From an uncultured virus (IMG/VR IMGVR_UViG_3300031227_000031) (Duplodnaviria; Heunggongvirae; Uroviricota; Caudoviricetes): a DNA stretch of 64,000 bases. The first letter of the stretch is position 1. Each line of letters starts with the position of its first letter. The stretch lies in the IMG/VR virus record IMGVR_UViG_3300031227_000031. One strand, given 5' to 3'. Positions 19,140 through 36,586 of the stretch are shown here, piece after piece. The notes below the pieces were generated by a model, which did no database searches, was not told where the DNA came from, and saw nothing but the letters and a program-made list of their open reading frames with translations. A program made the position numbers and the translations under genes.

Positions 19140-19370
19140 TTACATTTCTTCCCATTTAATAACGTTAAAAACCATATTGCATCCAAGATCAGTTTCGTAA
19201 TCAACTTTCTCGAATTTGCCCGTCAGGTTGTAAAAGCCCTTTTTAAGCGTCTTATCCTCTAGTTGTTCGTGTACCCAATGAACTGTTTTACCTTCATGGA
19301 ATGGATAACTGCAAACCTCACATCCAATAACACATCCGATTAATGTTGCTAAAATAACATATTTCATCAA
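19140..19370 (-). CDS. Small exported or membrane-anchored protein
   Basis: MMKYVILATLIGCVIGC hydrophobic N-terminus. Confidence 0.55.
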   Translation of the reverse strand: MMKYVILATLIGCVIGCEVCSYPFHEGKTVHWVHEQLEDKTLKKGFYNLTGKFEKVDYETDLGCNMVFNVIKWEEM

Positions 19371-20059
19371 TGTACTGGTATAGTCCTTCTTGCTGCCGCC
19401 GCGGCTAAAGGTTCAAAACTTGCAATAAGACAAACCCAATTTTGAGTACTACCTATTGTATGATCTGACGCATCTGTACCAGAACTTGATTTCCATTGAG
19501 TATGAACAGGCATGTGAGATGTCCCGTCTGGAAAATCTATTAATTCTGTCCATCCGCTACCCTCAGTCTGTGCTATATTAGCTCCATCATGTGACTGTGT
19601 ACCAAAGAATAACTCTGTATTCGCGCCCGAAGCAGTTATATTTCCAGAATTAGGTGCTGTGTTTTGTCCGGTAGCTGAAGCGTTTTGACTAAGAACACTT
19701 GATGTCGCATTTCCAGTAAATTCATGGATACCCATAGCATAATCACCCTGACCGCCGCCGTTGGTAACAACAAAAGAACCGCTTGCAGTTGAGGCGATTG
19801 CATAAAAAATCCCGACATTAACTCCCGCATTATCGTCATATACTGCTCTTGTATAAGAATTGCTCTGATTATCACTGATATCATTTGCCCCAATCGCACC
19901 TTCCCATATAGAAAGAACGACAACAATAAGACTATTTACATCAGGAGTAGAATCAAAAGTAGCAGTATTATTATCTGAAACTTTATTCTGCTCTGCTACC
20001 CACGCGCCAAAACAAGGGGTTGTAAAGAGCAGAAAGAATATGATTAGAAATATTTTCAT
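19367..20059 (-). CDS. Beta-rich fibre-tip/receptor-binding-like protein with signal peptide
   Basis: MKIFLIIFFLLFTTPCFG/A N-terminus; coupled (TGATG) to the fibre gene. Confidence 0.65.
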   Translation of the reverse strand: MKIFLIIFFLLFTTPCFGAWVAEQNKVSDNNTATFDSTPDVNSLIVVVLSIWEGAIGANDISDNQSNSYTRAVYDDNAGVNVGIFYAIASTASGSFVVTNGGGQGDYAMGIHEFTGNATSSVLSQNASATGQNTAPNSGNITASGANTELFFGTQSHDGANIAQTEGSGWTELIDFPDGTSHMPVHTQWKSSSGTDASDHTIGSTQNWVCLIASFEPLAAAAARRTIPVH

Positions 20060-23000
20060 CAATCTACCCAATTTCCGGTAAAGCAGATCGACACCCAAGT
20101 CGGAGTGTTCGTCACACTTGTAATGATAAGATCGAGTTCCTCCCCGGCGGCAACTGTTGTGTCCCCGTCGAGGGATATGTCCTCGGCTTCACCCGCCGCA
20201 GGGGCGATATCTGTTTGACTTACGTCCGCCGGGCTTCCATCATCAACCTGTAGGTCGAAACTAACTGTTTGGTCTGACTCTCCCCATATCTCGGTGATTA
20301 GGAAGTCGTTGGCTGTCTTATTCGCCCATATACTGTTGAAATCGTCTGTCGCAACAGGGTCTTCAAACCATATACATTTCGTATCGGTCTGGTCAGCGTC
20401 GGCTATCTGCGTATGCGTAATAATATCAGCGGCTATTTCAGTCGCAGTATTGATTGCCCCTGCAGGCAGGTCTATTGACGTTGTAATTATAGGGGTTGTG
20501 AGGTTCCATGAAGTAACCGCAACACTGTCGTCTATCGTACAAGCATCCTCACCCGCGCAGGTAAACTCTCCGAAATCTTCGCTTTGCAAATCCTCATCCC
20601 CGATTAACCCCGTAGCTGTAAATGCTGTAGTAAAGGTCGGGGAATCGAGAGTAGCATAAGCGGGGTGGGTATGCCCGCCCATACAAACCTTATCAGCCGC
20701 ACAAGCCCCTGTATTATCTTCGTCAGAACAAGCCGTTGCGAAGTTAGCACTAGAGAAATCGTCTGCCGATACGGTCATAATATTTAAGGCGTCCATAGCC
20801 GTTTCTAACTCAGCTTCGGTATTCACCGTACATTGAACCGCTGAACCGTCATTAGTACACATATCACCCGTTGTAAGTGTGCCAACTTCATCGTTATCCC
20901 CTGTATTAGCCCCGGAAACAGAAGAAGCACCCTTGCCTATCGTCAACACGCTATCGTTATCTGCGTGAGCCGTTAAGGTAAGCGTTCCTGTATTTACCGT
21001 TAGGGCTGTGGTCAACGTGGCATTTGTTACTGTCGCTGCATTACCCGTACAGGTGCTTGAGGTCAACGTATCCGATACCTCTGCATCTGTTAAAGCTATC
21101 GTTTCGCAAGTAAAGGTGTTCGGAGCAGCATCAGTATATTCAATCTTTTCATTAGCAGCACAAGCTGTTATACCTATATAAGCCCCTACATTTGCGCCAG
21201 TACCTACAAAGATTTCGTTTGATGCAGCATTAGTAGCAACAGTTTCAAGATCATTGGTTTCTGCATCAGCAGCAGCTAACAAATCCGTTGAGGCTGCCCC
21301 GTTATAGAAATTTAGATTAGTCCCATTCCACCAGAAATCCCCATCAACAGGCGTTCCATTAGCAGTGTCGCCTGTAAACCTCATGTGCGAGCCTGACGCA
21401 TGATCAGCGAATATCTCTAAAGCTGCTCCTGCTCCGTCATGTTGGATTTCTAAGGTTGGTTCGGTTGAGCTTGCATTATCTTGCTCAAAGAATACTAGTG
21501 GTGAATTTATTTGAACAACGTTAGAACGAACATAAAAACTATAACTTGATGCCGCTAATATACCCAGTTGATTAATATATAACCCATCACCCACTCCACG
21601 ATTGATAATATATGCCGCTCTTTGAGTAGAGCCGCCAAACTGGTCAATCTCAAAAAGAATATCATTGGTTTGAGCAACTGTGGAAAGAAGATATATCCCA
21701 TGTTTTGTACTTGCTAATACTCCGTCTTGGTGAATGTATAACCCATGATTTATATGGTCATTATCTACTTCTAAAACAGTTTCATTGGCGTCTGAATTAA
21801 TGTCAACTAACCCATTGAAAGTAGGCGCAGTCGATGGAGATTTAGCATCTATCTGCCCCTGTATTGCTGATGTAACACCTTTGAGGTAAATCAACTCTGC
21901 AAGACTTGGATATGTTGCTACGGCTCCTGAAGTAAGGTTCTTAGAAGCGTCTGTTATGACAATTTCGGAAGCGGTCAGCCCTACGATATTAATTAACCCA
22001 GCATTACTTATCGACATTCTTGCCGTTGGAGTTGCTTCCCCGTCAAGAGCCGTAGCAAATATTAATTCTGTCGGTAAATCGTTATTCCCCGCCACTCCAT
22101 TAATTACGGCTCGGATATAAGCCCCAATGTTTAAATCGTTATCTGTATCATCCCATCCCATAAATGCTATCTGTCCTAAAATATCATCATCAACAACTTG
22201 AGTCGGGGAACCATGCGTACCCCTTGCTCTAACAATAGCTACCGTTGAGGAATGAGTATCAGAGGCTCTGTCCATGTATGATATATAAGTATCCGCAACA
22301 TCATCACCGTATACGCCAAACTGAATAGATTTAGTTACTCCATTAACACTTATGGTTGGATGTAAATTTGAACCAACCGCTAAAGCACCATATATTTCAG
22401 TATCGCCATCTTGCATTATTGAAAAGACCGTTCCCCCCGCATCTTGACACCTGAAATAATCAGCAAGAACTTGGTCGTCATCTACGCTATAATTAAGGTC
22501 TAATAAATACATCTGGTTTGCTACGTCAGCATCAGAATCATTTATCGTAAAGAAAGAACCCGCCGCATCATAAGCAGTAGTAAGGAGAATATTCTCAGAG
22601 GCATGGTCAAAGTCTATTGTTGTTAATCCGTCATTGTCAGGGTCGCCTATATCATCCCAAGCGGTTGCACCACCACTGTCCTGATCTACTCCACAACTAA
22701 AAGAATTTGTAGTGGTATCATAAAGAAGTTTATCTGTTCCAGCAGTATCACAATCCGGCACCGATTTATAAACAACTGTATTCGTAGTTGTACCAACTGG
22801 AATTTCATCATCTGCAATACCAGTAGTAATTGTTTCAAGATTATTTACCTCTGTTGCTCCGGCTGCGACATAAGATGCTGTCCCATCATTATTATTAGTT
22901 AGAGTCGTATTGGGTACTTTAAGTTTATACGCCGCAACACTGGGGTCACCATCCTCTTCCTCTATAAGAAGAAGTGGGCCTTGAGAATAAGCGGTTGTAC

Positions 23001-23064
23001 TGCAAAATAGAACAGTTGTACTGCAAAATAGAAGAAAGGTAAGTATGTATGGTAATTTTTTCAT
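20059..23064 (-). CDS. Long acidic tail fibre-like protein with signal peptide
   Basis: MKKLPYILTFLLF...AYS/Q; fibre-type segments (GQIAFMGWD, ELIFATALDG, YLKGVTSAIQGQIDAK); 15 Cys after the signal. Confidence 0.75.
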   Translation of the reverse strand: MKKLPYILTFLLFCSTTVLFCSTTAYSQGPLLLIEEEDGDPSVAAYKLKVPNTTLTNNNDGTASYVAAGATEVNNLETITTGIADDEIPVGTTTNTVVYKSVPDCDTAGTDKLLYDTTTNSFSCGVDQDSGGATAWDDIGDPDNDGLTTIDFDHASENILLTTAYDAAGSFFTINDSDADVANQMYLLDLNYSVDDDQVLADYFRCQDAGGTVFSIMQDGDTEIYGALAVGSNLHPTISVNGVTKSIQFGVYGDDVADTYISYMDRASDTHSSTVAIVRARGTHGSPTQVVDDDILGQIAFMGWDDTDNDLNIGAYIRAVINGVAGNNDLPTELIFATALDGEATPTARMSISNAGLINIVGLTASEIVITDASKNLTSGAVATYPSLAELIYLKGVTSAIQGQIDAKSPSTAPTFNGLVDINSDANETVLEVDNDHINHGLYIHQDGVLASTKHGIYLLSTVAQTNDILFEIDQFGGSTQRAAYIINRGVGDGLYINQLGILAASSYSFYVRSNVVQINSPLVFFEQDNASSTEPTLEIQHDGAGAALEIFADHASGSHMRFTGDTANGTPVDGDFWWNGTNLNFYNGAASTDLLAAADAETNDLETVATNAASNEIFVGTGANVGAYIGITACAANEKIEYTDAAPNTFTCETIALTDAEVSDTLTSSTCTGNAATVTNATLTTALTVNTGTLTLTAHADNDSVLTIGKGASSVSGANTGDNDEVGTLTTGDMCTNDGSAVQCTVNTEAELETAMDALNIMTVSADDFSSANFATACSDEDNTGACAADKVCMGGHTHPAYATLDSPTFTTAFTATGLIGDEDLQSEDFGEFTCAGEDACTIDDSVAVTSWNLTTPIITTSIDLPAGAINTATEIAADIITHTQIADADQTDTKCIWFEDPVATDDFNSIWANKTANDFLITEIWGESDQTVSFDLQVDDGSPADVSQTDIAPAAGEAEDISLDGDTTVAAGEELDLIITSVTNTPTWVSICFTGNWVD

Positions 23065-23366
23065 CGAAAGTATGTCACCGTTATCTGAGCAAGTGTGCCA
23101 CTGCTCACTGAAGTTGTTCTAAAGTTTCTAATTGCATCAAAACTCTTAAGTTCAAACTGCATAAACGCAGTCATCTTGTGGCCTACAGTGCTTGAAGCCG
23201 TAACCGTACTTGTTTGGACATAACTAATTATTGGCCCAGCATCAACTGATACATTCGCCCATTTCACAGGAAGTCCACCTGACGCGGGACGATAAGTTGT
23301 GGTTGTCAACCCAACAGTAGCATCAGCACTTGTTACTGTTAGAGTTTCCATCGCATAGGGTTCCAT
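23061..23366 (-). CDS. Small Ser/Thr-rich beta structural protein
   Basis: Composition and position. Confidence 0.6.
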   Translation of the reverse strand: MEPYAMETLTVTSADATVGLTTTTYRPASGGLPVKWANVSVDAGPIISYVQTSTVTASSTVGHKMTAFMQFELKSFDAIRNFRTTSVSSGTLAQITVTYFR

Positions 23367-23367
23367 A

Positions 23368-23850
23368 TTATTCTCCTAAGATTTCGTTCAGTATATCGAG
23401 CTTGGCTTGAGATTTAACATCAAGGTTATCCTCACGGTCTGATTTAAGGTACTCTTTATGAATCTCATCACGTTTAGCAATGATTTCCTCGGTGTTCATA
23501 CCTTTCTCTCTAGACTCTTTAACCTGCTCAAGTTCCGCAATTCGTTTGAGTAAGTTCGCTATAATACTCGACTTTTCAGTATCGCCAACCAGTACTCGTA
23601 TTTTGTTCTCAACAAGTTTGACAACTCCAACAAGTTTGTCATCAACTCCTGAATCCATAACTTCAATGCGATCCTTAACACTATCATTGAGTTTCTTAAC
23701 CCTATCTCTAACATTATGAATTTGGTCGCCAATATATGTATGAGCTTCATCATTCTCCGTCTTTCTGTTGGAAAGCATACTGTTAACAACAATAAGAGTA
23801 TTCCGAATTTCCCGAATATCCTTTGAATAATCTTTCTGTTTCCACCACAT
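23368..23850 (-). CDS. Coiled-coil hypothetical protein
   Basis: Operon ORF. Confidence 0.6.
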   Translation of the reverse strand: MWWKQKDYSKDIREIRNTLIVVNSMLSNRKTENDEAHTYIGDQIHNVRDRVKKLNDSVKDRIEVMDSGVDDKLVGVVKLVENKIRVLVGDTEKSSIIANLLKRIAELEQVKESREKGMNTEEIIAKRDEIHKEYLKSDREDNLDVKSQAKLDILNEILGE

Positions 23851-24158
23851 TAGTGTATCTCCTTTATGAAAAAGATTATTTTGAAGGTATCGCTTTGGCT
23901 TAAATTGGAAATGAGGACTGTTAATTTGGCCTGAGTATCCGTTCCCAATGCAAGCCCTTCTTTATCATCAAGACGACCCGTGTGGGTTCTATCGTAAATC
24001 TCATCTGCGGATTTATCAACAATCCGTAACCGCCAAGATGTATCGTTCTTGGAAGGCTGAACTATAAGATGTTGGAGTAATCCCCGCATCTTTTCAGTAT
24101 TGAACTGTCCAGAACTTCCCTTAATCTTGATAATGTGCTTTTTCTTGTCGAAAAGCAT
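23850..24158 (-). CDS. Hypothetical structural protein
   Basis: Coupled ORF. Confidence 0.6.
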   Translation of the reverse strand: MLFDKKKHIIKIKGSSGQFNTEKMRGLLQHLIVQPSKNDTSWRLRIVDKSADEIYDRTHTGRLDDKEGLALGTDTQAKLTVLISNLSQSDTFKIIFFIKEIH

Positions 24159-24463
24159 TATTTTGGGATTGCGGTAATTACTTGGATAGTTGTAAGTCCC
24201 ACAGTCAGTATTTTCCGTAACCCGCTATAAGTCTGGTCGCCCATACTGAACTCCTGAGTCAACTGTCCTCTGTTGCCTGATGCAAGAGCTATAGTTTCGG
24301 CATAAAGAATTATATCTGCGGAATTAGATGTTGAAATAGAAACTGATCCGGCAGATGCCGTATTCCAAGTTACCCTGATTTTGTGGATTGGGACTGGGCT
24401 GTTAGTCACAAGACCATCCGTTGTGTCGAGCGCCCAAACTTTTCCTGTTAAAAGATTTGCCAT
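24158..24463 (-). CDS. Small beta structural protein
   Basis: Coupled ORF. Confidence 0.6.
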   Translation of the reverse strand: MANLLTGKVWALDTTDGLVTNSPVPIHKIRVTWNTASAGSVSISTSNSADIILYAETIALASGNRGQLTQEFSMGDQTYSGLRKILTVGLTTIQVITAIPK

Positions 24464-24732
24464 TATTTCCTACTCCTTTTTTTCCTCTTCTTTAAACTCG
24501 ATGGGATACTCCACCCAACATTCGCTTTTTTCTTTTCTATCTTTTTTACTTTAAACTTCTCAATTTTCTTCACGGGTTCTGTCCGAATTTCCACGAACCG
24601 CTGTTTTGGCGCCAACGTTTTTGCTGGTGCTTTTTTTGTTATAGACGCTGTTTTTGTCGCCGCTTTTTGGCGACCTTCTTTCCTCACCCTTGCTTTGACA
24701 TTATCAACATCATTGTCATTACGTTTGAACAT
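24463..24732 (-). CDS. Lys-rich basic protein
   Basis: Coupled ORF. Confidence 0.55.
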   Translation of the reverse strand: MFKRNDNDVDNVKARVRKEGRQKAATKTASITKKAPAKTLAPKQRFVEIRTEPVKKIEKFKVKKIEKKKANVGWSIPSSLKKRKKRSRK

Positions 24733-25253
24733 TATGCCCTTCCTTTTCTGATGGGGCGAAATCTTTCAACATCACCCGCGTGTGGATTGTCTGGATCAAG
24801 ATGCCTCATGATATTCTTGAACTCCTTCACATACTTCTCATTCTTCTTATTCCATGCGACATTACGATTAACACTATTTAAGTTCGCCATTCTGCTTTCA
24901 TCAACAACGGTTTTGATTGTCCCATTAACTTCAAACTGTTTAACCGGATGAAGTTCATCACGGGACAACATTCCAACTTTAAACATATCTTTCAACTCTT
25001 TTGCCCGTTTCCACATTTTACTTTTTGTAATACCATCAAGGGTTTCAGGCATAGTGTTATCCATTGACCGTTTATAATCACGATAATTCTTCATTGCATC
25101 ACCCTGGTTAATTCTACCCTTGTACTCCGCACCAGTTTTATCTTTCTCCTCCTTAACCCTATCAGCCATTTCTCGGCGTGCAACAGGTTTGGCAACTTTA
25201 CGGTCAACTTGATGCTTGAAAGTCGTATCACTGTTTTTTGTAAATATTATCAT
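24732..25253 (-). CDS. Hypothetical phage protein
   Basis: Coupled ORF. Confidence 0.65.
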   Translation of the reverse strand: MIIFTKNSDTTFKHQVDRKVAKPVARREMADRVKEEKDKTGAEYKGRINQGDAMKNYRDYKRSMDNTMPETLDGITKSKMWKRAKELKDMFKVGMLSRDELHPVKQFEVNGTIKTVVDESRMANLNSVNRNVAWNKKNEKYVKEFKNIMRHLDPDNPHAGDVERFRPIRKGRA

Positions 25254-25531
25254 TTCAAGAACCTATATGATGGTTTACCACCCATAAGCGCAGGATTCTT
25301 CATATGAGTGTACTCATTATTGTCCAAAATGTTCCCGTCAATATTAACAAGGTTATGGCAGTATTCACAACGGTATTGATAACATTGTGGGGAAACGGAT
25401 TGTATAAATTTGAGTTTAGGTTTATGCGCCCCGTCAAAAGGTTGATTACTCGGGCATAACCCATAAGGACACGGCATTTCATGAAACCACTTTTTAACCT
25501 TACTTACATCTTTAGAGAACCATTTGAGCAT
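25250..25531 (-). CDS. Zinc-ribbon protein
   Basis: CPYGLC and CEYC. Confidence 0.65.
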   Translation of the reverse strand: MLKWFSKDVSKVKKWFHEMPCPYGLCPSNQPFDGAHKPKLKFIQSVSPQCYQYRCEYCHNLVNIDGNILDNNEYTHMKNPALMGGKPSYRFLK

Positions 25532-26967
25532 TTTCTTACCTTTATATATCCAAGTTTAATAGCTTTAACTGCCTCAATAATTCCAAATGAATCTCCCGGT
25601 TCCATTTCATCCATACATACGTCTATTGGCATATGTTTATCAATTCCTTGTTCATGGAATATAATTTTAAGTAAGTCAACTCGTTGTTTTGCAAGTGCTA
25701 CGATTGCAAATTCCCGAGGCCCATGTTTAATTGCCATTTCTGTATAATAAAGTGATTTTTCCCAACTGGTCATCACGCTAAAATACGCCGCTATGTTTAC
25801 CAAGCAGAGGAATGAATATTTTTCAAGAAACAACCCTTTTTCAAACAACTTCTTAGCTTCAAGGTGTTTTCCAATATGAAGGTATCGTTCTCCAAGGTTT
25901 GCGTAGTTGCTGATACAATCTGGATGATCTTTTATTCCGTGGATGTAAAGTTGTGATATTGTACTGAACGCCGGAATATAGTTCATTGTCTTGTATGCGT
26001 AAAGCAGGCATACAATCATAAGAATTATTGGGTTCTGACATAACGGGGCCAGAATTAATGCTATTCCAACATTGGGAAGGTATGTGTAGCGTTCTGCAAT
26101 AAACTGGCCCAAAATCTTAAACTGGGAGAAAGGACCAATAGTAACAAAAAACCAAACAACGCCCAAAGGCGACAAATGCCAACCAACAACCGAAAAGACC
26201 AAAATCGTTAGTAAAGAAAACCAAAACTCACCGTCAGCCGACTCCAACCGAGCACGGACGCCCTTCTCCTTCATGTATCCGAACCCGTACTGCCGAAAAA
26301 AGGCAAGTTTATTGGGAAACAAGCATAAACGAATGTAATAAGCGACAACCTTGGTCATTAAGAAGATTTTACGCCAAGTAGTCGTATCTTTCTTCCCCAT
26401 GTTTCTTATTTTATACCCTGTGCGGAATCTGTGGCCGAATAGGTAAAATACTAGGGGCCAGAATAAGATTAATCCCCAGTATGAGCTTATTGGTAGTAAG
26501 AATAAGAACGGAAGCCCAACACAAATTATTGTTGACCCAAGTGCTGCTGTGAAGAATACAGTTGAAACCAATGCTCCTGCAATGTTAGCAAATGGAAGGA
26601 AACTGAATGTAATCGGGAATTGGTGTATGAAAAAGAACGAGGTTAATGCTAGAAATGTTGTGAATGAGTAGTACCCACCAGTTTTCCATGCTGCACCATT
26701 AACGCTCAATGGGTTAATGAGGAAAAGTAATGAAGGTATCGGCCCGAACAGTATATAGAGTAACCAAACATTAAGTGCGTGAGTGATTACTGGGAGGAAA
26801 TTCCGCCAAGGATTAGGCCGTGCTGAGTAGAACTCAGGTGGTGGTGAACTTCGCGGGACAACGTAAAGGTAATCCCAACGCCTGACAATATCATCAATGA
26901 TGTAATGGAAACCCCAAACTCTCCAATACAGCACCGCTATTAAAATCATTAGTAAGGTTAGAACCAT
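25504..26967 (-). CDS. TMTC-like GT-C membrane glycosyltransferase with C-terminal TPRs
   Basis: LYWRVWGFHYIIDD (DD after TM1), HALNVWLLY, LLFLINPL..GAAWKTG, IAERYTYLPNVG, TPR-like ANLGERY. Confidence 0.85.
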   Translation of the reverse strand: MVLTLLMILIAVLYWRVWGFHYIIDDIVRRWDYLYVVPRSSPPPEFYSARPNPWRNFLPVITHALNVWLLYILFGPIPSLLFLINPLSVNGAAWKTGGYYSFTTFLALTSFFFIHQFPITFSFLPFANIAGALVSTVFFTAALGSTIICVGLPFLFLLPISSYWGLILFWPLVFYLFGHRFRTGYKIRNMGKKDTTTWRKIFLMTKVVAYYIRLCLFPNKLAFFRQYGFGYMKEKGVRARLESADGEFWFSLLTILVFSVVGWHLSPLGVVWFFVTIGPFSQFKILGQFIAERYTYLPNVGIALILAPLCQNPIILMIVCLLYAYKTMNYIPAFSTISQLYIHGIKDHPDCISNYANLGERYLHIGKHLEAKKLFEKGLFLEKYSFLCLVNIAAYFSVMTSWEKSLYYTEMAIKHGPREFAIVALAKQRVDLLKIIFHEQGIDKHMPIDVCMDEMEPGDSFGIIEAVKAIKLGYIKVRKCSNGSLKM

Positions 26968-26992: not shown

Positions 26993-27718
26993 TTACTTTT
27001 TTCTTATCCACCAAAAATTGTTGTAATAATTAGGTATCCCGAATCGTTCATTTACGGCTTTCGTGACACCATGATGAATGTCGTTTACCATGTCCTGCTC
27101 TATATACTTCTCATCATAATTCTTATTATTGTAATCATGTCCTGCGAGTATCCCTTTATTCTTGATCTTGGGATACCATAATTCTATATCTTTTTTAACA
27201 CAACTGTACCGATGGTCTGCGTCAATCCAGAACCAATCAAATGTGTTATCTTTTATTCTAACTGCTGCTTCTTCAGAACTCATCTGCATGAGGGTATAAA
27301 TATCTTCATATTCATTCATTCTGTTGAGAAACTCATTTTTGATACGTCCGTCTATATCAGACTGAACTGCTCCCTTGCTACCCTTAAACCATTCAATAAC
27401 AATAAACTTACCAGACTTATTTTTCCTTATCCACTTAGCAATAGTTAAAGTTGACGCCCCACGATCAGCACCGAGTTCACCAATAACAGGGTTCTTCTTG
27501 TTCTTAATTTGCTTAAGAATCTCGGTCAGATAATTCATTGTATTGATAACACTAATGTTTATTTCAACATCATAACCAACACGTTGACTTATTTGTTCAC
27601 CAATCTTCTGAATTTCCTTAATTAATTTTTCTCTTTCATCTATAGTGATGATTTGAGAAAACTTATTACAGAGTACTTGAAGAGCTTCTCTCTCTTTTAA
27701 TGTGAATGTATCAGTCAT
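26993..27718 (-). CDS. Class I SAM methyltransferase (Methyltransf_24-like)
   Basis: ELGADRGAST and FDWFWIDADHRY...GILAGHDY motifs. Confidence 0.88.
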   Translation of the reverse strand: MTDTFTLKEREALQVLCNKFSQIITIDEREKLIKEIQKIGEQISQRVGYDVEINISVINTMNYLTEILKQIKNKKNPVIGELGADRGASTLTIAKWIRKNKSGKFIVIEWFKGSKGAVQSDIDGRIKNEFLNRMNEYEDIYTLMQMSSEEAAVRIKDNTFDWFWIDADHRYSCVKKDIELWYPKIKNKGILAGHDYNNKNYDEKYIEQDMVNDIHHGVTKAVNERFGIPNYYNNFWWIRKK

Positions 27719-27727
27719 AAAAAGATG

Positions 27728-30194: not shown

Positions 30195-30211
30195 TAGAAT
30201 TCCCCTATTTG

Positions 30212-31180: not shown

Positions 31181-31236
31181 CTTCCTTCTCCTTTCTCTAT
31201 CGCACAAACCATGTATAGTTTGATTGAATCGAGCGC

Positions 31237-31479
31237 CTAAAGTTTCTCAAACTCCCGTTGTGGAAGTTCAAGCATTGTTTTGATTAACTCAAGTTTTCCG
31301 GCAGTACTGGCTGAACGAATAGTATCACCTGTCCTACCCGCCAACTCCAGTTCCTCCTGCAGCCGGGTTTTGAGGCTGCTGTACCCCTGGCGATCCTCCA
31401 ACACGAGGGCCTCAAATACTTTCCACCCCGGATGTGCTAGCAATTCCTGTAAAGCAATCTTTATTCTTCTTGATTCCAT
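31237..31479 (-). CDS. Small portal-adjacent protein (Bbp19-like)
   Basis: LLAHPGWKVF...GKLELIKTMLELP pattern. Confidence 0.55.
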   Translation of the reverse strand: MESRRIKIALQELLAHPGWKVFEALVLEDRQGYSSLKTRLQEELELAGRTGDTIRSASTAGKLELIKTMLELPQREFEKL

Positions 31480-31906
31480 ATTTCTTCTCCACTTTCTCAA
31501 TTAGAACATTATGCTTTTTAATAAAATTACAATTTGCACACAATATCTGATACTTATTGCTAGTATCAGCTAAAACAGCTTTAAATCTTTTCATTGAACA
31601 TGGAACTAATTTTCTATCATTATACCCATCATTATTTTTATGATCTATATGAAGTGCTCTTTTATCATCAAATCCACAAATAACACATTTGTGTCCGAGT
31701 TTATCAAATACTCTTTTTCGTAATTTTTGTCTTTGACCATTATCTCTAATATACTGATATGCCTTTGAACTTATGTTTTCATCATGCGGATATTGTCTTA
31801 ATTCTTTTCTATTACATTGAACACATTGTTTACTTGTAGATGCTATTAAATTACCACAATTGGGACAAGGTTTTTTTGTTTTCCAATATTTTTCTTTATT
31901 GGGCAT
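31412..31906 (-). CDS. HNH-type endonuclease with Zn ribbons
   Basis: CVICG...LHIDH...QILCANCN. Confidence 0.85.
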   Translation of the reverse strand: MPNKEKYWKTKKPCPNCGNLIASTSKQCVQCNRKELRQYPHDENISSKAYQYIRDNGQRQKLRKRVFDKLGHKCVICGFDDKRALHIDHKNNDGYNDRKLVPCSMKRFKAVLADTSNKYQILCANCNFIKKHNVLIEKVEKKYGIKKNKDCFTGIASTSGVESI

Positions 31907-34061
31907 TAATATTTCCTTGTGGAACCTGTTGTTGAGGTTGGTTCTGATTTTCTATTCTAGGCCCCTGCATTAATCCTATTTGTGGAGGATTTAACTTACC
32001 TTGATTTTGAGACTGTCCAGCATTTCCACCTCCTTGATTCACAAGAGCTTGTTGTTGTATTGTTTCAGAATACGCCAATCTATGCTCTAAAATGTGTTCT
32101 GTTAGTATTCGTGAGGCGTTGGGAGTTAAACTTCTCCCCATTTCACGTTTAAACTCTGAATGTCCGTTCATATGTTGCACGTGATCGTCTTGAGGACTGA
32201 TCTTGGGGTTCATCTCTTGAGAAACCATGATGTTCTCATCATCAACGTCGCCTTCGTTGACTCCCATATCGGGTTTGGGGCCAATATATTTCTCAATATC
32301 TTTCTTGTTGAGTGAACGAAGGTATCCGGCTTTAATTTCCCACATGAACGAAGGGTTGGTCTGAACTGTCGGGTCTTGGATGAATGTTTGGTAAATCAAC
32401 TGGTCGGCTTGTTTCTCAAACGCAATATCTCCAGCAGTTAAATCAATCTCCATCATAGCGTCATACTGGCCTGCAATAGTTTCAGGTGATAACATTCCCC
32501 ATACAGGGTTACCGTCTTTTCCAAGTACTCTTTTCTGAATATCAGGCGGCATATTCTCTTCATAAAGCTGACGAGTCATTGTGATAAGGTCACTGAAGAT
32601 TCGTTGAACACGAGCTGCAAGGAGTCCGAACTTCTGTTCACCTTGAGCAATAACTGCAAGTGTTCCGCGCGCTGTAGGTCTTGATGCCGTTTCTCGACCA
32701 AGCATGGCGGGGGTAAGGAAAGTAAGTTTCTCAATCAAATCCATCACGATATTCTCTTCTTGAAACGATACTGTAAGCCGTCCTGCGTTGTAATTAGGGA
32801 AGAACACATCACGTTGCGGGTCATCAAGGGGGATACCCATACCAGGCCCGATTTCAAGAGTTTCGGGTTGCATCCCCGAACCTGCACGATAAAAGAAGAA
32901 TGGAGCAATAACCATATTCCCAGCATCAATGCGTTGGTTATGGATAGCGTTCATTTCTTTGTGAAGATGTCGAACAAGTTCAGGGATACCTTTCCCATAA
33001 ATAAGTCCGGGGCGGCGGAGGAATGGACGAATAAGCCATGATTTCTTGCCAATACGGGATACTGTATGGAGTGGTTTGCCTGCAAGGTATCCTTTTTCGT
33101 TCTTAGCATCAGCGAGGCAGAGGAATACACATTGTTCTCTTACCCCATCATGGTTAATATCGTATGCAATCTGGCCTTCATAACATTTGACGGGATAACT
33201 ATCACGCCGAGCATAGTATGATTCAATTCCAGAAGATTCAAGCCGCTGACGAATTGTGCCACCGGGATCAAATCCTTTATCAACTTCTTTTTCTAAATCT
33301 TCAACATCAATGTCGGGAAGCAACTGACCTCTGGCTTTCATCTCACGAAGCATGGGAAGGTTGAAGTATACTTCCTCAATAATATCAGCACGTTGTTCGT
33401 TTTCCGCGTTGAATGTCGGGTATACATAATCTATATCTTTAATAATCCACCGTGCGCGTTCCCGGCGAATATGGTCATAAATCACTTTATTCTTTATCTC
33501 TCCCTTTTCCGAAACACTGGTTGGTTCAACTCTAGTAACATATGTGTAATATACTTCCCAAACAACTTTGACCGCGATAGTCCCGTCAACCACAAGTCGG
33601 TGAAGAATATCATCAACTTTATCCTGTGTACCTTCCATATCCTTGTTTAGCGCCCATGTCATTAAGGTTTTGTTATCTTCCGCAACATTCTCATCATGCT
33701 TTTCCGTTGCCACAAAGTGCATTGTATCAAGATTCCAAATCATCGGGAAAAGTTTGGCGTGCATCATGTCAGCTGAAATAGTCGTGACCATTGTGGAAAT
33801 ATTAGAACTTCCTTCCCACGGGCCATTAACTTCCTCAATTCCCTCGTAATTCTTAACACCCTCGGTCTTAATCTTAATCAACCCCGCACGTTGCCGAGTA
33901 GCTTCCTTCACCATCTCATTGATTGTTTCACAAACTTTCTTCTTCTCATCGGGCGGAAGTCTAAACATTTTCCCGAACTCAATCTTTTTATCCTGCTCCT
34001 CAAGTTTCTTCGCCTTATCGGGGAATAACTCTTTTGTAGTCTTCATTTTGAATTCGGGCAT
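31896..34061 (-). CDS. Portal protein (podovirus-type)
   Basis: PWEGSSN, YGKGIPEL, HNQRID and TARGTL motifs; 721 aa; Gln-rich tail. Confidence 0.88.
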   Translation of the reverse strand: MPEFKMKTTKELFPDKAKKLEEQDKKIEFGKMFRLPPDEKKKVCETINEMVKEATRQRAGLIKIKTEGVKNYEGIEEVNGPWEGSSNISTMVTTISADMMHAKLFPMIWNLDTMHFVATEKHDENVAEDNKTLMTWALNKDMEGTQDKVDDILHRLVVDGTIAVKVVWEVYYTYVTRVEPTSVSEKGEIKNKVIYDHIRRERARWIIKDIDYVYPTFNAENEQRADIIEEVYFNLPMLREMKARGQLLPDIDVEDLEKEVDKGFDPGGTIRQRLESSGIESYYARRDSYPVKCYEGQIAYDINHDGVREQCVFLCLADAKNEKGYLAGKPLHTVSRIGKKSWLIRPFLRRPGLIYGKGIPELVRHLHKEMNAIHNQRIDAGNMVIAPFFFYRAGSGMQPETLEIGPGMGIPLDDPQRDVFFPNYNAGRLTVSFQEENIVMDLIEKLTFLTPAMLGRETASRPTARGTLAVIAQGEQKFGLLAARVQRIFSDLITMTRQLYEENMPPDIQKRVLGKDGNPVWGMLSPETIAGQYDAMMEIDLTAGDIAFEKQADQLIYQTFIQDPTVQTNPSFMWEIKAGYLRSLNKKDIEKYIGPKPDMGVNEGDVDDENIMVSQEMNPKISPQDDHVQHMNGHSEFKREMGRSLTPNASRILTEHILEHRLAYSETIQQQALVNQGGGNAGQSQNQGKLNPPQIGLMQGPRIENQNQPQQQVPQGNINAQ

Positions 34062-34264
34062 TATTTTTTCCTCTTTTTCTTCTTGGGAAACCCATCATTA
34101 GCGTAGTATAAAGCAACTTGACTCTTTGTGAATACACGACCAGACGGACTTTTGAATTTTCCCCTATTCTTCCCTCTTTTTATTTTAGAAAATGGCATGA
34201 TAAGGTAATCTGACCAATCACTCTTTTTTATTCGTTTCTTGTGTTGTTTAACTGTAGATACCAA
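34061..34264 (-). CDS. Small basic phage protein
   Basis: KSPSGRVFT..QVALYYA; very Lys-rich. Confidence 0.6.
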   Translation of the reverse strand: MVSTVKQHKKRIKKSDWSDYLIMPFSKIKRGKNRGKFKSPSGRVFTKSQVALYYANDGFPKKKKRKK

Positions 34265-34284
34265 TGCGGACTATTATTTATAGA

Positions 34285-34689
34285 TTATTCTTCTGTTTTC
34301 AGGATTGAACAAGTTGGATCGTAGAGGTAGCTTCCGCAACATGGACATCCTCCGACAACTGCTCTATTCCAGTATAAAACTGATAAACTCGCACTCGTTG
34401 CTGTTATGGTTGACGACTCATCACCTTCATCTTGGTAAATTATACATTCAATCTTGGTCGCGTCTTCGTCGATTTTTCGCGAAACTGAAAGGGTTTCGTA
34501 AGCACTGCTTCCTGTGTGAGCATCACCATCAGTCGTTCCATCACCGTCATCTATTCTTAACCACACATCTTCGTTGCTTGACCAAACTCCACAAGTGAAC
34601 GTTACAACTGTGTACCGCCAATCATTCTTGCCAGATAAAGTTATATCTTTGTTAAGTTCAACAATATCTTGTTTGAGTAAAAGAGCCAT
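34285..34689 (-). CDS. C-terminal half of a split paralogue of 36587-37009
   Basis: Ends GGCPCCGSYLYD, versus GGCPCCGSFLYD in 36587-37009. Confidence 0.7.
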   Translation of the reverse strand: MALLLKQDIVELNKDITLSGKNDWRYTVVTFTCGVWSSNEDVWLRIDDGDGTTDGDAHTGSSAYETLSVSRKIDEDATKIECIIYQDEGDESSTITATSASLSVLYWNRAVVGGCPCCGSYLYDPTCSILKTEE

Positions 34690-35147
34690 TAATCAGGCCC
34701 CGCTACTGTAATTTCCAGCTGAACGTAAGTGGCATCTTCAGTTTCAATCCTACCGTCTGTTCCAGCAGTTTCTTCAGAAGTCCAATTATCGGGGTCAAGT
34801 GACCATCCGTTTATCCAGTTGGTGAACCCACCGTTCTTGATAATATTCTTACCTTCATCAGATAATTCCGCACCATAATAATGGTCGTAACTTGGGCCGA
34901 TTCGTTGGCTCCCGTTATCAATCCCGTATCCCGCCCATTGACCGTCTTTAAGTCGTGCATCACGTTCTCTGTCGCATACCCATCCGCAATGACGGCATCG
35001 AATCAATCGTTCTTTCTCATTACCTTTGGTTGTTGAGTTTGTCGCGCCTGCTGCTTTATTAAACCCACCACTTGCTTTATAATTAGCGGCGTTAGGTCTG
35101 TCTTTAAAAGTCGAAATATACCCTGGATTATGTTTTAATCGTTTCAT
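34689..35147 (-). CDS. N-terminal half of a split paralogue of 36587-37009
   Basis: RPNA...KGNEKERLIRCRHCGWVCDRERD nearly identical to 36587-37009. Confidence 0.75.
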   Translation of the reverse strand: MKRLKHNPGYISTFKDRPNAANYKASGGFNKAAGATNSTTKGNEKERLIRCRHCGWVCDRERDARLKDGQWAGYGIDNGSQRIGPSYDHYYGAELSDEGKNIIKNGGFTNWINGWSLDPDNWTSEETAGTDGRIETEDATYVQLEITVAGPD

Positions 35148-36586
35148 TAGTCCGAGAGGTCAGTTGCAGTTACCGTACCATTGATAACTTCAATCCTATA
35201 ATATTTTCCATTAGTTGTATCTTTTACACAGACACCCTTCCACGCATGAGGGGTATCATCATCATTTTTCCCAAGATAATATGTGTTATCTGTTGCTGGT
35301 TCCATATTCCCTGTAACCCAAACCCTCGTCTTTAAAGACATCAAGCTGGGCGTAAAAGTAGCAACCTCTGTCGCCCCTTTATTTCCAACTCTTATAGATA
35401 CTTTTTCGCTTCCACCCCCTACGCCTCTAGTCGCAACCAATTTAAGTTCTTGGTCTACTGCATAAGAACCATATAAAATGGGGGTTACAACTTCGTCTTG
35501 AAAGATTGTTGATGGGGAACCATCACCTAACCAGTCATTGGTAGTAGCGGAAGTATCAAATCCGTCAATTTCAGTAGTCGGGTTATATCCACCTTGAGGA
35601 AACATAAATCTATTGTTTGTAATGGTGTCTAAAACTATTTTTGTCGAGTTAGTTAATCCACCTTCAAGATAAGCCATTTCAAAAATATTAGCGTTAGCGT
35701 TTTTTAAATATAGCAATCTATTATTAGCACTCGTTGTTGACCCCTGAAAACTAATATCTTTATAATAGTTCCCATCCCCGCCATTACTATAAATTAAGTA
35801 ACAAACCCCGTCGGTAATATAAGTTGTCGAATTGGCATTGCTACCTGGCCCGCCAACAATATTATTTCCTCTTACAAGTCCGTTATCAGTTAAGGATTCG
35901 TCTATCATAACTCCATACTTATAAGCGATAATATCCCTGAATGAAATACGATTCCAGAAAGTATTTTTTTCTGTTGTGGCAGAAAGTTTGACCCCTGCAT
36001 AACAGTTTATAATTTTACCAACATTGAACGTACCAAAATGACTATTTCTAATACGAACCCCACACTGGGCAGTCCACGCTGCATTTGGGGTCATGTTACG
36101 AAAACTTATATTATCTAATCCAAATGGCGATACTTCTGCTGCTACACCTTGAAAAGTTCCAATTACACCCGCAGTCGCACCAGAACCATCAAAGTCAAAG
36201 ATGGGACCATTGTAGTTTCCAGTTATCAGTACATAACCCAATCCAATAACGGATACTCCTTTAAGATATTGAATGCTGTTTGTAGTCTTATATGTTCCAT
36301 TTGGAAAAACTATTATATCTCCTGCCGAAGCTGCGGCAATAGTCGTTTCAATAGCAATCGTATCATCTGTTGTGCCATTACCAGTTGCACCAAACCGAGC
36401 ATCTTTAACATTAAATATTTGTCCAAACCGGGAATCTATAGTATCAAAGTTAGTGTTGACACTTGCACCCCAGTTAGTTTCATCAATTGCAGGTTTATAA
36501 AGTTCAAGGTTAGTTGTTTTTGTACCTGCCCAACATAAACTTGCTATCCCAAGAATCGCCAAACTTATAGAGAATAATCTTTTCAT
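35147..36586 (-). CDS. Pectate-lyase-like beta-helix tailspike with signal peptide
   Basis: MKRLFSISLAILGIASLCWA/G; FNVKDARFGATGNGTTDDT and VFPNGTY motifs. Confidence 0.82.
   Translation of the reverse strand: MKRLFSISLAILGIASLCWAGTKTTNLELYKPAIDETNWGASVNTNFDTIDSRFGQIFNVKDARFGATGNGTTDDTIAIETTIAAASAGDIIVFPNGTYKTTNSIQYLKGVSVIGLGYVLITGNYNGPIFDFDGSGATAGVIGTFQGVAAEVSPFGLDNISFRNMTPNAAWTAQCGVRIRNSHFGTFNVGKIINCYAGVKLSATTEKNTFWNRISFRDIIAYKYGVMIDESLTDNGLVRGNNIVGGPGSNANSTTYITDGVCYLIYSNGGDGNYYKDISFQGSTTSANNRLLYLKNANANIFEMAYLEGGLTNSTKIVLDTITNNRFMFPQGGYNPTTEIDGFDTSATTNDWLGDGSPSTIFQDEVVTPILYGSYAVDQELKLVATRGVGGGSEKVSIRVGNKGATEVATFTPSLMSLKTRVWVTGNMEPATDNTYYLGKNDDDTPHAWKGVCVKDTTNGKYYRIEVINGTVTATDLSD

What the first reader, a model, noticed from the sequence alone, without database searches (positions are those of the whole stretch)
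19140..36586. Virion fibre/spike proteins with Sec signal peptides plus a phage GT-C: possible periplasmic maturation of virion appendages
Seen: three appendage-type proteins in the late operon start with classic n-h-c signal peptides. These are the beta-helix tailspike (MKRLFSISLAILGIASLCWA/G), the 1001-aa fibre (MKKLPYILTFLLF...AYS/Q) and the fibre-tip-like protein (MKIFLIIFFLLFTTPCFG/A); a small fourth gene (19140-19370) also has a hydrophobic leader. The fibre has 15 Cys after its signal, many closely spaced (e.g. C-x8-C, C-x5-C, C-x17/18-C). Established: tailed-phage structural proteins normally assemble in the cytoplasm without signal peptides, while disulfide formation and GT-C catalysis occur extracytoplasmically. 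Inference: these appendages are exported, oxidatively folded and perhaps glycosylated by the co-encoded TMTC-like enzyme, then docked on particles at or after lysis. Alternatively they are displayed on infected cells.
Basis: partly seen in the sequence, partly recalled or inferred. Interest (0 to 1): 0.92.

Follow-up and report, generated by a model that had tools for sequence, protein, structure and literature searches.

The report
Phage tail fibres carrying export signals
An uncultured short-tailed phage puts ordinary bacterial secretion signals on all three of its fibre and spike proteins and also carries a membrane sugar-adding enzyme, so its host-recognition parts probably mature outside the cytoplasm, a route that textbooks do not describe for tailed phages.

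Summary
Four late-operon products start with export leaders: a pectate-lyase-type spike, a 1001-aa fibre, a 230-aa minor-tail-like protein, and a 76-aa protein with a lipobox. All four starts are coupled to the upstream gene. The 487-aa membrane protein is a real GT-C/PMT-like enzyme with TPRs facing outward.

Comparison supports cleavable signals. 15 of 17 fibre homologues carry leaders. In the 230-aa family, leaders sit directly in front of the residue that follows the start Met in leaderless relatives, so both forms give the same mature end.

Virion membership is not shown here. It has a cultured precedent: Cellulophaga phage phi18:3 gp085-087 are annotated as MS/MS-detected virion proteins, and all three start with leaders.

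The glycosylation link is weak. The GT-C is a core gene (8 of 8 clade members), while leader-bearing appendages occur in only 4 of 8. Cysteine evidence is mixed.

The scan has noted leader-bearing fibres before on other DNA. Six literature searches found no description. Verdict: real and unusual; export likely, docking after lysis inferred, fibre glycosylation speculative.

The parts
35147..36586 (-). 479-aa beta-helix spike with an N-terminal Sec-type leader (residues 1-20). It is an accessory insertion between the terminase and portal genes.
   Evidence: Pfam PF12708 matches at 5.4e-9, 36.6 bits, against a cut-off of 27. The leader is seen. Sibling phages have no homologue at this place. The last ~55 residues are a module shared with 60+ fibre-like proteins.
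20059..23064 (-). 1001-aa tail fibre with a leader (residues 1-27; cleavage predicted before Q28) and 15 Cys in the mature part
   Evidence: PHROG tail-fibre families match at 4e-13 and 1.5e-12. Residues 226-366 match annotated cyanophage tail fibres by tblastn. The start overlaps the upstream stop (ATGA). The leader and first ~64 residues are conserved in L024. Cys897/Cys994 are invariant in 6 of 6 homologues.
19367..20059 (-). 230-aa two-lobed all-beta protein of a phage minor-tail-protein-like family, with a leader (residues 1-18; cleavage predicted before A19)
   Evidence: The start overlaps the fibre's stop (TAATG). The family has 798 members at E<=1e-3. The leader/leaderless register is shown. 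The model has pLDDT 92.5. BFVD gives 74 matches, including mycobacteriophage minor tail proteins.
19140..19367 (-). 75-aa small protein with a lipoprotein-type leader (lipobox VIGC, Cys16)
   Evidence: Sequence read. L024 has an 86-aa lipobox protein in the same slot. No family hit.
25504..26967 (-). 487-aa membrane glycosyltransferase of GT-C fold (about 11 TM, residues 1-334) with a C-terminal TPR domain (about 335-460). Core gene of the phage clade.
   Evidence: Model; fold search. D25 and D26 are invariant in 33 of 33 sequences. TPR is detected by sequence. Charge bias places loop 179-199 inside. The Atlas gives PMT_2 and TMTC look-alikes. 104 homologues were found. Synteny is seen.
25250..25531 (-). 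93-aa Cys-rich protein that overlaps the end of the GT-C gene; conserved partner position in the clade
   Evidence: Homologues lie directly after the GT-C gene in L023, L024, L026, L029, L032 and L045.
26993..27718 (-). 241-aa class I methyltransferase (Methyltransf_24) just upstream of the GT-C; accessory, not seen in sibling phages
   Evidence: Pfam 3.6e-20. No homologue in L023-L032 by BLASTP.
23061..23366 (-). 101-aa leaderless protein that forms a cassette with the leader-bearing fibre
   Evidence: Its only homologue among the siblings is in L024 (52% identity), again directly upstream of a leader-bearing fibre.
36587..37009 (-). 140-aa zinc-ribbon protein, the intact copy of a clade core gene. 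A second, split copy (34689-35147 and 34285-34689) lies on the other side of the spike gene.
   Evidence: Paralogy is shown. Siblings have one copy of 98-147 aa. An ORF at the same place in L061 is 375 aa with a similar N-terminus (by eye).
34285..35147 (-). Split and expanded second copy of the zinc-ribbon gene (152 aa + 134 aa)
   Evidence: BLAST matches to the N- and C-terminal parts of the 140-aa protein.
18677..18862 (-). 61-aa protein with C-terminal hydrophobic segments; a possible lysis or membrane protein at the end of the fibre slot
   Evidence: Sequence read. No family hit.
14263..18611 (-). Two conserved leaderless tail-module proteins (375 aa and 1074 aa). The larger has a ~560-aa insertion with a concanavalin-like lectin domain that siblings lack.
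   Evidence: Homologues in L026 and L029. Laminin_G_3 matches at 3.2e-9. The L026 homologue is 499 aa and aligns to residues 4-202 and 760-1074.

Best explanation
The window holds the late operon of an uncultured phage of about 50 kb with a podovirus-type gene set.

**Export (inferred).** The products of its whole fibre slot (the 1001-aa fibre and the 230-aa minor-tail-like protein) and of an inserted pectate-lyase-type spike are made as Sec pre-proteins. They cross the cytoplasmic membrane and signal peptidase I cuts them. A fourth small product is probably lipid-anchored.

**Docking (inferred).** Heads and tail cores assemble in the cytoplasm. The appendages fold outside it, where the fibre's conserved Cys pair can oxidise. 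They meet the particles only when the membrane is breached at lysis.

**GT-C.** The co-encoded GT-C/TPR protein is a PMT/TMTC-like glycosyltransferase whose catalytic Asp-Asp loop and TPR arm face outward. It is a core gene of the clade whether or not the fibres carry leaders. Its acceptor is therefore more likely a host envelope protein, or some other common target, than these fibres.

**Shown here:** the leaders, their coupling to the upstream genes, their recurrence in homologues, the shared mature N-terminus, the GT-C fold and its charge bias.
**Inferred:** export, cleavage, virion membership, docking after lysis, and the acceptor.
For: 1. **Starts.** The leader-including starts are translationally coupled (ATGA, TAATG, or stop directly followed by ATG). 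22 of 32 late genes have a Shine-Dalgarno-like motif, against 16% at random positions.
2. **Restricted to these genes.** Only 5 of 82 window products have leader-like N-termini: these four plus TM1 of the GT-C.
3. **Fibre homologues.** 15 of 17 fibre-homologue ORFs with a readable N-terminus carry leaders.
4. **230-aa family.**
   - 24 of 80 stand-alone members carry leaders and 56 do not.
   - In alignment A3, 9 of 13 leader-bearing members place a small-x-small site exactly on the initiator-Met column of the 37 leaderless ones. Ala follows in 12 of 13 and in 34 of 37.
   - The closest homologue (81% identity) is leaderless and starts at the predicted cleavage site.
5. **Appendage nature.**
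   - PHROG tail-fibre hits and cyanophage tail-fibre matches.
   - Pfam beta-helix hit for the spike.
   - BFVD matches to minor tail proteins.
   - The slot between the conserved 100-aa genes and the 375-aa tail gene holds only leader-bearing proteins here.
6. **Cultured precedent.** Cellulophaga phage phi18:3 gp085, gp086 and gp087 are annotated as virion proteins 'based on experimental MS/MS proteomics'. All three start with n-h-c leaders, unlike the 9 other MS/MS-annotated proteins of that stretch as read by eye.
7. **GT-C.**
   - Fold Z 15.8, 15.8, 14.7, 14.0 and 13.9 to five GT-C families; the best unrelated rows score 8.9 or less.
   - Asp25-Asp26 invariant in 33 of 33 sequences.
   - Loop 179-199 has net charge +5.6 against -0.5 for loop 1, averaged over 33 sequences.
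   - The Atlas gives PMT_2 at 0.96 and TMTC_DUF1736 at 0.90.
8. **Cysteines.** Cys897/Cys994 are invariant in 6 of 6 homologues.
Against: - No signal-peptide predictor was available. My test is a crude heuristic, and it put the fibre's cleavage site elsewhere (after residue 16) than the alignment with L024 suggests.
- Nothing here shows that the proteins are in particles.
- The same domains work without leaders in close relatives: 56 of 80 in the 230-aa family and 68 of 78 in the spike's family. Export is therefore not needed for folding.
- The spike gene is an accessory insertion absent from siblings. That fits a non-virion secreted enzyme as well.
- Leaderless recognition candidates exist: a lectin-domain insertion in the 1074-aa tail protein and the split zinc-ribbon protein.
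- Cys content does not separate leader-bearing from leaderless members of the spike's family. The mature 230-aa protein has one Cys.
- The host is unknown. If it has no outer membrane, exported fibres would diffuse away before lysis.
- The phi18:3 proteins are not homologous to these.
Confidence: 0.55

Rival explanations
1. The leader-bearing proteins are exported but are not parts of the particle. They act as free secreted factors of the infected cell. The spike-like enzyme would trim capsule or other surface glycan from the periplasmic or outer side. The fibre-like adhesins would mask or clear receptors. Either way, progeny and superinfecting phages would not be lost on infected cells and debris.
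For: - The spike gene is an accessory insertion between terminase and portal, flanked by a duplicated gene, like a moron.
- L027 has a different 194-aa leader-bearing protein at the same place.
- Leaders come and go within families (10 of 78 and 24 of 80), as expected for an optional change of location.
- A leaderless lectin-domain insertion in the 1074-aa tail protein could serve as the particle's own receptor binder.
Against: - The 1001-aa fibre and the 230-aa protein occupy the clade's fibre slot, with no leaderless fibre beside them.
- The fibre shares domains with annotated tail fibres of cultured cyanophages, and the 230-aa fold matches minor tail proteins.
- In phi18:3 the three leader-bearing proteins are annotated as found in particles by MS/MS.
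Confidence: 0.25
2. The phage GT-C O-glycosylates the exported fibres and spike in the periplasm, using its TPR arm to hold them. The neighbouring methyltransferase modifies the sugar.
For: - The catalytic loop and the TPR domain are predicted on the same, outer side as the exported proteins.
- The closest folds are protein O-mannosyltransferases.
- All these genes lie in one late operon.
- The fibre is rich in Thr and Ser, read but not counted.
- The closest homologue of the 230-aa protein ends in a long Thr/Ser tract.
Against: - The enzyme is present in 8 of 8 clade members examined. Leader-bearing appendage-slot proteins are in 4 of 8, and L026, L032, L045 and L061 show none.
- Fibre homologues L004-L021 have no GT-C homologue within about 6 kb.
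- The homologue with the Thr/Ser tract is leaderless.
- The methyltransferase is absent from siblings, and PHROGs groups it with DNA methyltransferases.
- No lipid-sugar donor synthase was found in the window.
Confidence: 0.2
3. The hydrophobic N-termini are not cleaved. They tether the appendages to the cytoplasmic membrane as signal anchors, on either side, until lysis, or they serve another role such as oligomerisation.
For: - Some homologues have long leaders with no clear cleavage site (L006, L009, L010).
- My heuristic cannot tell a signal anchor from a cleaved signal.
Against: - Classic small-x-small sites follow short h-regions in most cases.
- In the 230-aa family that site is in register with the N-terminus of leaderless members. 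This is what cleavage predicts and what an anchor does not need.
Confidence: 0.08
4. Artefact: the starts are wrong, or the contig is chimeric, and the leaders are not translated with these genes.
For: The window does contain a second, unrelated tail module at 52000-64000 that siblings lack. The contig may therefore join two phages.
Against: - The same 100%-identical late operon occurs on two other viral contigs from other records (L001, L002).
- The starts are coupled to the upstream genes.
- No in-frame Met is seen in the first 45 residues after any of the three leaders; in-frame GTG and TTG codons were not checked.
- Leaders recur in homologues.
Confidence: 0.02

Closest known systems
Cellulophaga phage phi18:3 (NC_021794, Pachyviridae) gp085, gp086, gp087
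   Same: A cultured short-tailed phage has three adjacent large proteins that start with n-h-c leaders. Its GenBank record annotates them as virion structural or tail proteins from MS/MS of particles. This is the only direct hint that such proteins end up in virions.
   Different: There is no sequence similarity to the window's proteins. The host is a Bacteroidota, whereas this window's genes use Shine-Dalgarno sites. No GT-C was looked for in that phage. The record does not comment on the leaders, and the original paper was not in the searchable library. I saw only the record.
Canonical tail fibres and tailspikes of tailed phages (P22 gp9, T7 gp17, cyanophage fibres)
   Same: The beta-helix spike domain, the fibre domains shared with annotated cyanophage fibres and the position in the late operon are the same.
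   Different: From general knowledge, the canonical ones have no signal peptide and join the particle in the cytoplasm. P22 spikes can be added to heads in vitro, which makes late docking conceivable.
Protein O-mannosyltransferases (Pmt1/2/4, GT39) and TMTC1-4 (GT105)
   Same: The GT-C fold matches (Z 15.8 over 280 residues). An acidic pair follows TM1 directly. There are about 11 TM. TMTC also has a C-terminal TPR array on the non-cytoplasmic side (recalled). The Atlas gives PMT_2 at 0.96 and TMTC_DUF1736 at 0.90.
   Different: No Pfam PMT, PMT_2 or DUF1736 hit even at E<=1. The protein is much smaller (487 aa), has no MIR domain, is phage-encoded, sits in a head/tail operon, and its acceptor and donor are unknown.
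Serotype-converting phage Gtr systems (GtrA/GtrB plus a type-specific membrane transferase)
   Same: Both are phage-encoded integral-membrane glycosyltransferases that act on the outer face of the cytoplasmic membrane. From general knowledge, the Gtr systems change the host surface and block superinfection. This is the model for the host-envelope reading.
   Different: No GtrA or GtrB partners were found in the window. This enzyme has a TPR arm that suggests a protein acceptor. It is a late-operon core gene of what looks like a lytic clade. No sequence relation was tested.
Filamentous phage coat proteins (pIII, pVIII) and signal-bearing phage lysis or exclusion proteins (SAR endolysins, spanin lipoproteins, Llp/Cor)
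   Same: From general knowledge, these are phage proteins that use the host Sec or Lol routes.
   Different: They belong to membrane-assembled filamentous phages, or they are not virion parts. Here the carrier is an HK97-type tailed phage.

Membership tests
Sec/signal peptidase I signal peptide | Positively charged n-region, 8-16-residue uncharged hydrophobic h-region, and small residues at -3 and -1 | tested here: met
   My own heuristic flags the spike, the fibre and the 230-aa protein. SignalP was not available.
Sec/signal peptidase I signal peptide | Cleavage gives a defined mature N-terminus | tested here: inconclusive
   Indirect only. In 9 of 13 leader-bearing members of the 230-aa family, the site aligns with the initiator Met of 37 leaderless members. 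No protein data.
Bacterial lipoprotein (signal peptidase II substrate) | Lipobox [LVI][ASTVI][GAS]C at the end of a short leader | tested here: met
   In the 19140-19367 product, LIGC ends at Cys12 and VIGC at Cys16. The lipobox pattern itself is recalled.
Two-component spanin (outer-membrane lipoprotein subunit) | Adjacent or overlapping inner-membrane partner with an N-terminal TM and a periplasmic coiled coil | tested here: inconclusive
   Only a 61-aa protein with C-terminal hydrophobic segments lies nearby. No family hits.
GT-C glycosyltransferase superfamily | Multi-pass fold with the conserved N-terminal TM module | tested here: met
   The top 16 rows of the VIA-align wide search are GT-C enzymes or the GT-C-like PIG-U, with Z 15.8 to 9.4 over residues 1-348. 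Model pLDDT is 86.3.
GT-C glycosyltransferase superfamily | Acidic catalytic residue(s) in the first extracytoplasmic loop | tested here: met
   Asp25 and Asp26 are invariant in 33 of 33 sequences. The loop is placed outside by charge bias.
GT-C glycosyltransferase superfamily | Uses a polyprenol-phosphate-linked sugar donor | not testable with these tools
   No donor synthase gene was found in the window. A host supply would be needed.
Pfam PMT / PMT_2 (GT39, GT83) and TMTC_DUF1736 (GT105) | Match to the family HMM | tested here: not met
   No hit for the window protein at E<=0.01. Among 33 family members, the 25 most often matched of 31 families at E<=1 include none of these; 6 families were not shown. 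NCBIfam gives none at E<=1. The protein is therefore filed as 'works like', not as a member. The Atlas feature scores (0.96 and 0.90) are leads only.
TMTC-type architecture | N-terminal GT-C membrane domain followed by TPR repeats on the non-cytoplasmic side | tested here: met
   TPR is found by profile (1e-37 to an engineered TPR; Pfam TPR_2 in 20 of 33 members). About 10 TM lie between loop 1 and the TPR.
Pectate-lyase-like beta-helix tailspike or depolymerase | Right-handed beta-helix domain (Pfam PF12708) | tested here: met
   36.6 bits against a cut-off of 27, over residues 58-227. Catalytic residues and substrate were not tested.
Phage tail fibre | Homology to known tail-fibre proteins | tested here: met
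   phrog_18345 matches at 4e-13 and phrog_9942 at 1.5e-12. tblastn hits 26 cultured-phage records, 25 of them cyanophages, over residues 226-406 only. The rest of the protein has no named relative.
Virion structural protein | Physically present in purified particles | not testable with these tools
   Only an analogy with phi18:3 gp085-087.

The most novel reading that the evidence does not exclude
Tailed phages of several unrelated clades run a second, extracytoplasmic arm of virion assembly. Receptor-binding fibres and spikes are exported by Sec, trimmed by signal peptidase and oxidised. In this clade they are also O-glycosylated by a phage-encoded PMT/TMTC-like GT-C. They are snapped onto cytoplasm-built particles only in the moments of lysis.
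Probability: 0.15. Interest if true: 0.92.

Novelty: new variant of a known kind. Interest (0 to 1): 0.72.

Why it matters
If fibres and spikes of tailed phages really mature outside the cytoplasm, the textbook rule that all parts of a tailed phage assemble in the cytoplasm has a widespread exception.

- It would explain how some receptor-binding proteins acquire disulfides or glycans.
- It would change how such proteins should be expressed for phage engineering and diagnostics: with their leader, in the periplasm.
- It would add a step at which hosts or drugs (Sec or signal-peptidase inhibitors) could block phage maturation.

The question is directly testable in a cultured, harmless system: Cellulophaga baltica and phage phi18:3.

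Separately, a PMT/TMTC-like GT-C with an outward-facing TPR arm is a core late gene of a phage clade with more than 100 members. I found no paper on this. It points to phage-directed protein glycosylation at the cell envelope.

Tried and rejected
- **Whole genome.** None is held for this window (error).
- **Close relatives among cultured phages.**
  - Megablast of the region against cultured phages found no match.
  - The portal has only three distant hits.
- **Viral-contig scans.**
  - The spike found only the same phage.
  - The 230-aa protein found nothing.
  - tblastn of the 230-aa protein against cultured phages found no match.
- **Fold searches.**
  - Foldseek against PDB found only TPR proteins for the GT-C model.
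  - It found nothing at E<=0.001 for the 230-aa model.
  - VIA-align wide gave no clear solved relative for the 230-aa model (best Z 5.9).
- **Complex prediction.** The 101-aa neighbour with fibre residues 28-140 gave no verdict (score 0.00, controls not run). This is neither for nor against binding.
- **Cys enrichment as a mark of export.** Rejected for the spike's family (0.51% against 0.64%).
- **Co-occurrence of the GT-C with leader-bearing fibres.** Rejected as a rule.
- **Host assignment.**
  - The only hit among 185,579 species genomes is a 52.6-kb contig binned with a Patescibacteria MAG. It is about one phage genome long and gives no integration evidence.
  - I considered a Bacteroidota host because Gln follows the predicted cleavage site in several leaders. 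I set it aside because 22 of 32 genes have Shine-Dalgarno motifs.
- **Inverted GT-C topology (active face in the cytoplasm).** Charge bias over 33 sequences speaks against it.
- **Literature.** Searches returned no paper on signal peptides on tail fibres or on phage GT-C/TPR enzymes. The passages read were irrelevant. The paper behind the phi18:3 proteomics is not in the searchable library.
- **Disulfide geometry.** It could not be read, because the fold tool returns no coordinates.

Full report
**What the window is.**
- The minus strand from 8954 to 39404 is a phage late operon.
  - It encodes small and large terminase, an SU10-type portal (Pfam 4.4e-9), a scaffold-like protein and a Mu gpT-like major capsid protein (2.9e-13).
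  - Tail genes follow.
- No cultured phage is close.
  - Megablast finds nothing.
  - The portal has three hits at 21-25% identity.
- The same operon occurs at 100% identity on two other viral contigs (L001, L002).
- Sibling phages with 55-66% identical portals and 74-80% identical capsid proteins occur on contigs of 35-54 kb. CheckV rates three of them complete.
- The right end of the window (52000-64000) is a different, long-tailed module with DUF2460, BR0599 and Phage-tail_3 domains and a J-like fibre. The four sibling records searched lack it, so the 73-kb contig may join two phages. This does not touch the finding.

**The leaders.**
- Four products start with export-type leaders.
  - The spike (35147-36586) starts MKRLFSISLAILGIASLCWA.
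  - The fibre (20059-23064) has a 27-residue leader.
  - The third protein starts at the ATG at 20059, not at the upstream TTG. It is 230 aa and begins MKIFLIIFFLLFTTPCFG.
  - The small fourth protein has a lipobox.
- Each start is coupled to the upstream gene (ATGA, TAATG, or stop followed by ATG).
- 22 of 32 late genes have a Shine-Dalgarno-like motif, against 16% at random positions.
- With a crude n-h-c test of my own, 5 of 82 window products are flagged: these four and TM1 of the GT-C. I had no SignalP.

**Are the leaders real signals? Three comparisons say yes.**
- *Fibre homologues.*
  - Pieces of the fibre recur in 18 other viral loci.
  - Of 17 homologue ORFs with a readable, non-duplicate N-terminus, including L024, 15 carry leaders and 2 (L014, L015) do not.
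  - L007 is cut by the contig end, and L017 duplicates L016.
- *The sibling L024.* The leader and the first ~64 residues of the fibre are conserved there. So is the leaderless 101-aa gene just upstream.
- *The 230-aa family.* This is the strongest comparison.
  - The family has 798 members at E<=1e-3.
  - Among the 80 listed stand-alone members, 24 carry leaders and 56 do not.
  - In an alignment of 51 members, 9 of the 13 leader-bearing ones place a small-x-small site exactly on the column of the initiator Met of the 37 leaderless ones. The other 4 have such a site within three residues.
  - Ala follows in 12 of 13 leader-bearing members and in 34 of 37 leaderless ones.
  - After Met removal or signal-peptidase cleavage, both forms would therefore begin with the same residue.
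  - The closest homologue (81% identity) is leaderless and starts exactly at the predicted site.

**Are they appendages?**
- The spike has a pectate-lyase-like beta-helix domain above Pfam's cut-off.
  - Its last ~55 residues are a module shared with more than 60 otherwise different fibre-like proteins.
  - 10 of the 78 listed hits carry leaders.
- The fibre hits PHROG tail-fibre families and annotated cyanophage tail fibres over residues 226-366.
- The 230-aa protein folds with confidence (pLDDT 92.5) into a two-lobed all-beta domain.
  - It has no clear solved relative.
  - It has 74 matches among predicted viral structures, including mycobacteriophage 'minor tail proteins' at TM 0.6-0.8.
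- In this phage, the variable slot between the conserved ~100-aa genes and the 375-aa tail gene holds only leader-bearing proteins.
- The spike gene is different in kind. It is an insertion between terminase and portal, flanked by a duplicated zinc-ribbon gene, and siblings lack it.

**Are such proteins ever in particles?**
- I could not test this for the window.
  - The GenBank record annotates gp085, gp086 and gp087 as virion or tail proteins 'based on experimental MS/MS proteomics analysis'.
  - All three translate with classic leaders followed by Gln.
  - Read by eye, the 9 other MS/MS-annotated proteins in that stretch do not. My heuristic, run over all 45 CDS, flags 12, among them these three and, weakly, gp120.
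- These proteins are not homologous to the window's. This is a precedent for the phenomenon, not evidence about these genes.

**The GT-C.**
- Sequence searches see only TPR repeats in the C-terminal part.
- The AlphaFold model (pLDDT 86.3, pTM 0.85) matches GT-C enzymes in the top 16 rows of a search over 48,161 chains.

| Match | Z |
|---|---|
| Pmt4 (280 residues, rmsd 4.0) | 15.8 |
| Pmt1-Pmt2 | 15.8 |
| ALG12 | 14.7 |
| ArnT | 14.0 |
| AglB | 13.9 |
| Best unrelated rows (TPR proteins) | 8.9 or less |

- Asp25-Asp26, right after TM1, are invariant in 33 of 33 sequences, as are motifs in the other predicted outer loops.
- Over the 33 sequences, loop 179-199 has net charge +5.6 and loop 1 has -0.5. 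This puts the catalytic loop and the TPR arm outside, as in other GT-C enzymes.
- Language-model and structure look-alikes are bacterial PMT_2-type and membrane-plus-TPR proteins.
- It fails the Pfam PMT, PMT_2 and DUF1736 models. I therefore say it works like a PMT/TMTC enzyme and do not file it as a member.

**Is the GT-C tied to the exported fibres? The evidence says no.**
- The enzyme sits at the same place (capsid gene, ~180-aa gene, GT-C, Cys-rich ~100-aa gene, ~175-aa gene) in all 8 clade members for which I had the region: the window, L023, L024, L026, L029, L032, L045 and L061.
- Leader-bearing proteins in the fibre slot occur in 4 of the 8 (the window, L024 648 aa, L023 228 aa, L029 114 aa). 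Large fibres with leaders occur in 2 of the 8.
- The fibre homologues L004-L021 have no GT-C homologue within about 6 kb.
- The methyltransferase next to the GT-C is absent from siblings.
- A core enzyme needs a core or host acceptor. By analogy with phage Gtr systems (general knowledge), I think a host envelope protein is the most likely acceptor. This is inference.

**Cysteines.**
- Cys897 and Cys994 are invariant in 6 of 6 homologues of the C-terminal domain.
- C-x15-19-C motifs occur in the window fibre and in 6 of the 17 homologues.
- Against this:
  - The mature spike has 4 Cys and the 230-aa protein has 1.
  - In the spike's family, leader-bearing members are not Cys-richer.
- Disulfides could also form after release. 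The argument is weak.

**Host.**
- The host is unknown.
- The only match among the species genomes is a phage-sized contig binned with a Patescibacteria MAG.
- If the host lacks an outer membrane, docking after lysis becomes less plausible and display or secretion more so.

**Verdict.**
- Odds:

| Claim | Odds |
|---|---|
| Export of the three appendage proteins | about 0.85 |
| Export plus virion membership with docking at lysis (my best explanation) | 0.55 |
| Free secreted factors | 0.25 |
| Fibre glycosylation by the GT-C | 0.2 |

- Six literature searches found no description of either feature.
- This scan has noted leader-bearing fibres on other DNA before.

Noticed in passing
window 52000-64000 (-): A second, unrelated structural module of a long-tailed phage. 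It has a 685-aa tape-measure-like protein, DUF2460, BR0599, a 1033-aa NlpC/P60 plus Phage-tail_3 J-like fibre, and a 305-aa fibre-like protein. It is absent from four sibling records, so the contig may join two phages or be chimeric.
   Followed up: partly
window 5581-7662 (+): Phage-encoded GroEL (540 aa, PHROG 1.2e-140) and a GroES-like protein, upstream of the late operon.
   Followed up: no
window 34285-37009 (-): A clade core zinc-ribbon gene (140 aa) is duplicated around the inserted spike gene. The second copy is split into 152 + 134 aa with extra sequence between the two zinc-binding halves. An ORF at the same place in L061 is 375 aa, so this small protein seems to tolerate large variable inserts.
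   Followed up: partly
window 14263-17487 (-): The conserved tail-module protein is 1074 aa here but 499 aa in L026. The extra ~560 residues include a concanavalin-like lectin domain (Laminin_G_3, 3.2e-9). This is a possible leaderless receptor binder built into the tail core.
   Followed up: partly
window 35147-35320 (-), last ~55 residues of the spike: A highly conserved C-terminal module (70-83% identity) caps more than 60 otherwise unrelated fibre-like proteins of 270-810 aa. Its role (tip, chaperone or docking piece) is unknown.
   Followed up: partly
window fibre residue 28; L023, L024, L029; L062 gp085-087: Gln follows the predicted cleavage site in the leader-bearing proteins of 4 of 4 GT-C-clade phages and in 3 of 3 phi18:3 proteins. 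This recalls the Bacteroidota 'Q-rule' named in an earlier scan note. Yet this phage uses Shine-Dalgarno sites, which argues against a Bacteroidota host.
   Followed up: partly
P0184 (homologue of window 19367-20059); window 58171-58821: Long Thr/Ser tracts. One is at the C-terminus of the leaderless 81%-identical homologue of the 230-aa protein. The other is at the N-terminus of a protein in the second tail module. They look like mucin-type linkers.
   Followed up: no
window 31412-31906 (-): An HNH endonuclease gene lies between the portal and scaffold genes. L029 has a 238-aa Cys-rich ORF that overlaps the 3' end of its capsid ORF, which is shorter there (254 aa against ~295).
   Followed up: no
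window 25250-25531 (-): A 93-aa Cys-rich protein always overlaps the 3' end of the GT-C gene in the clade. It may be a partner or regulator of the enzyme.
   Followed up: partly
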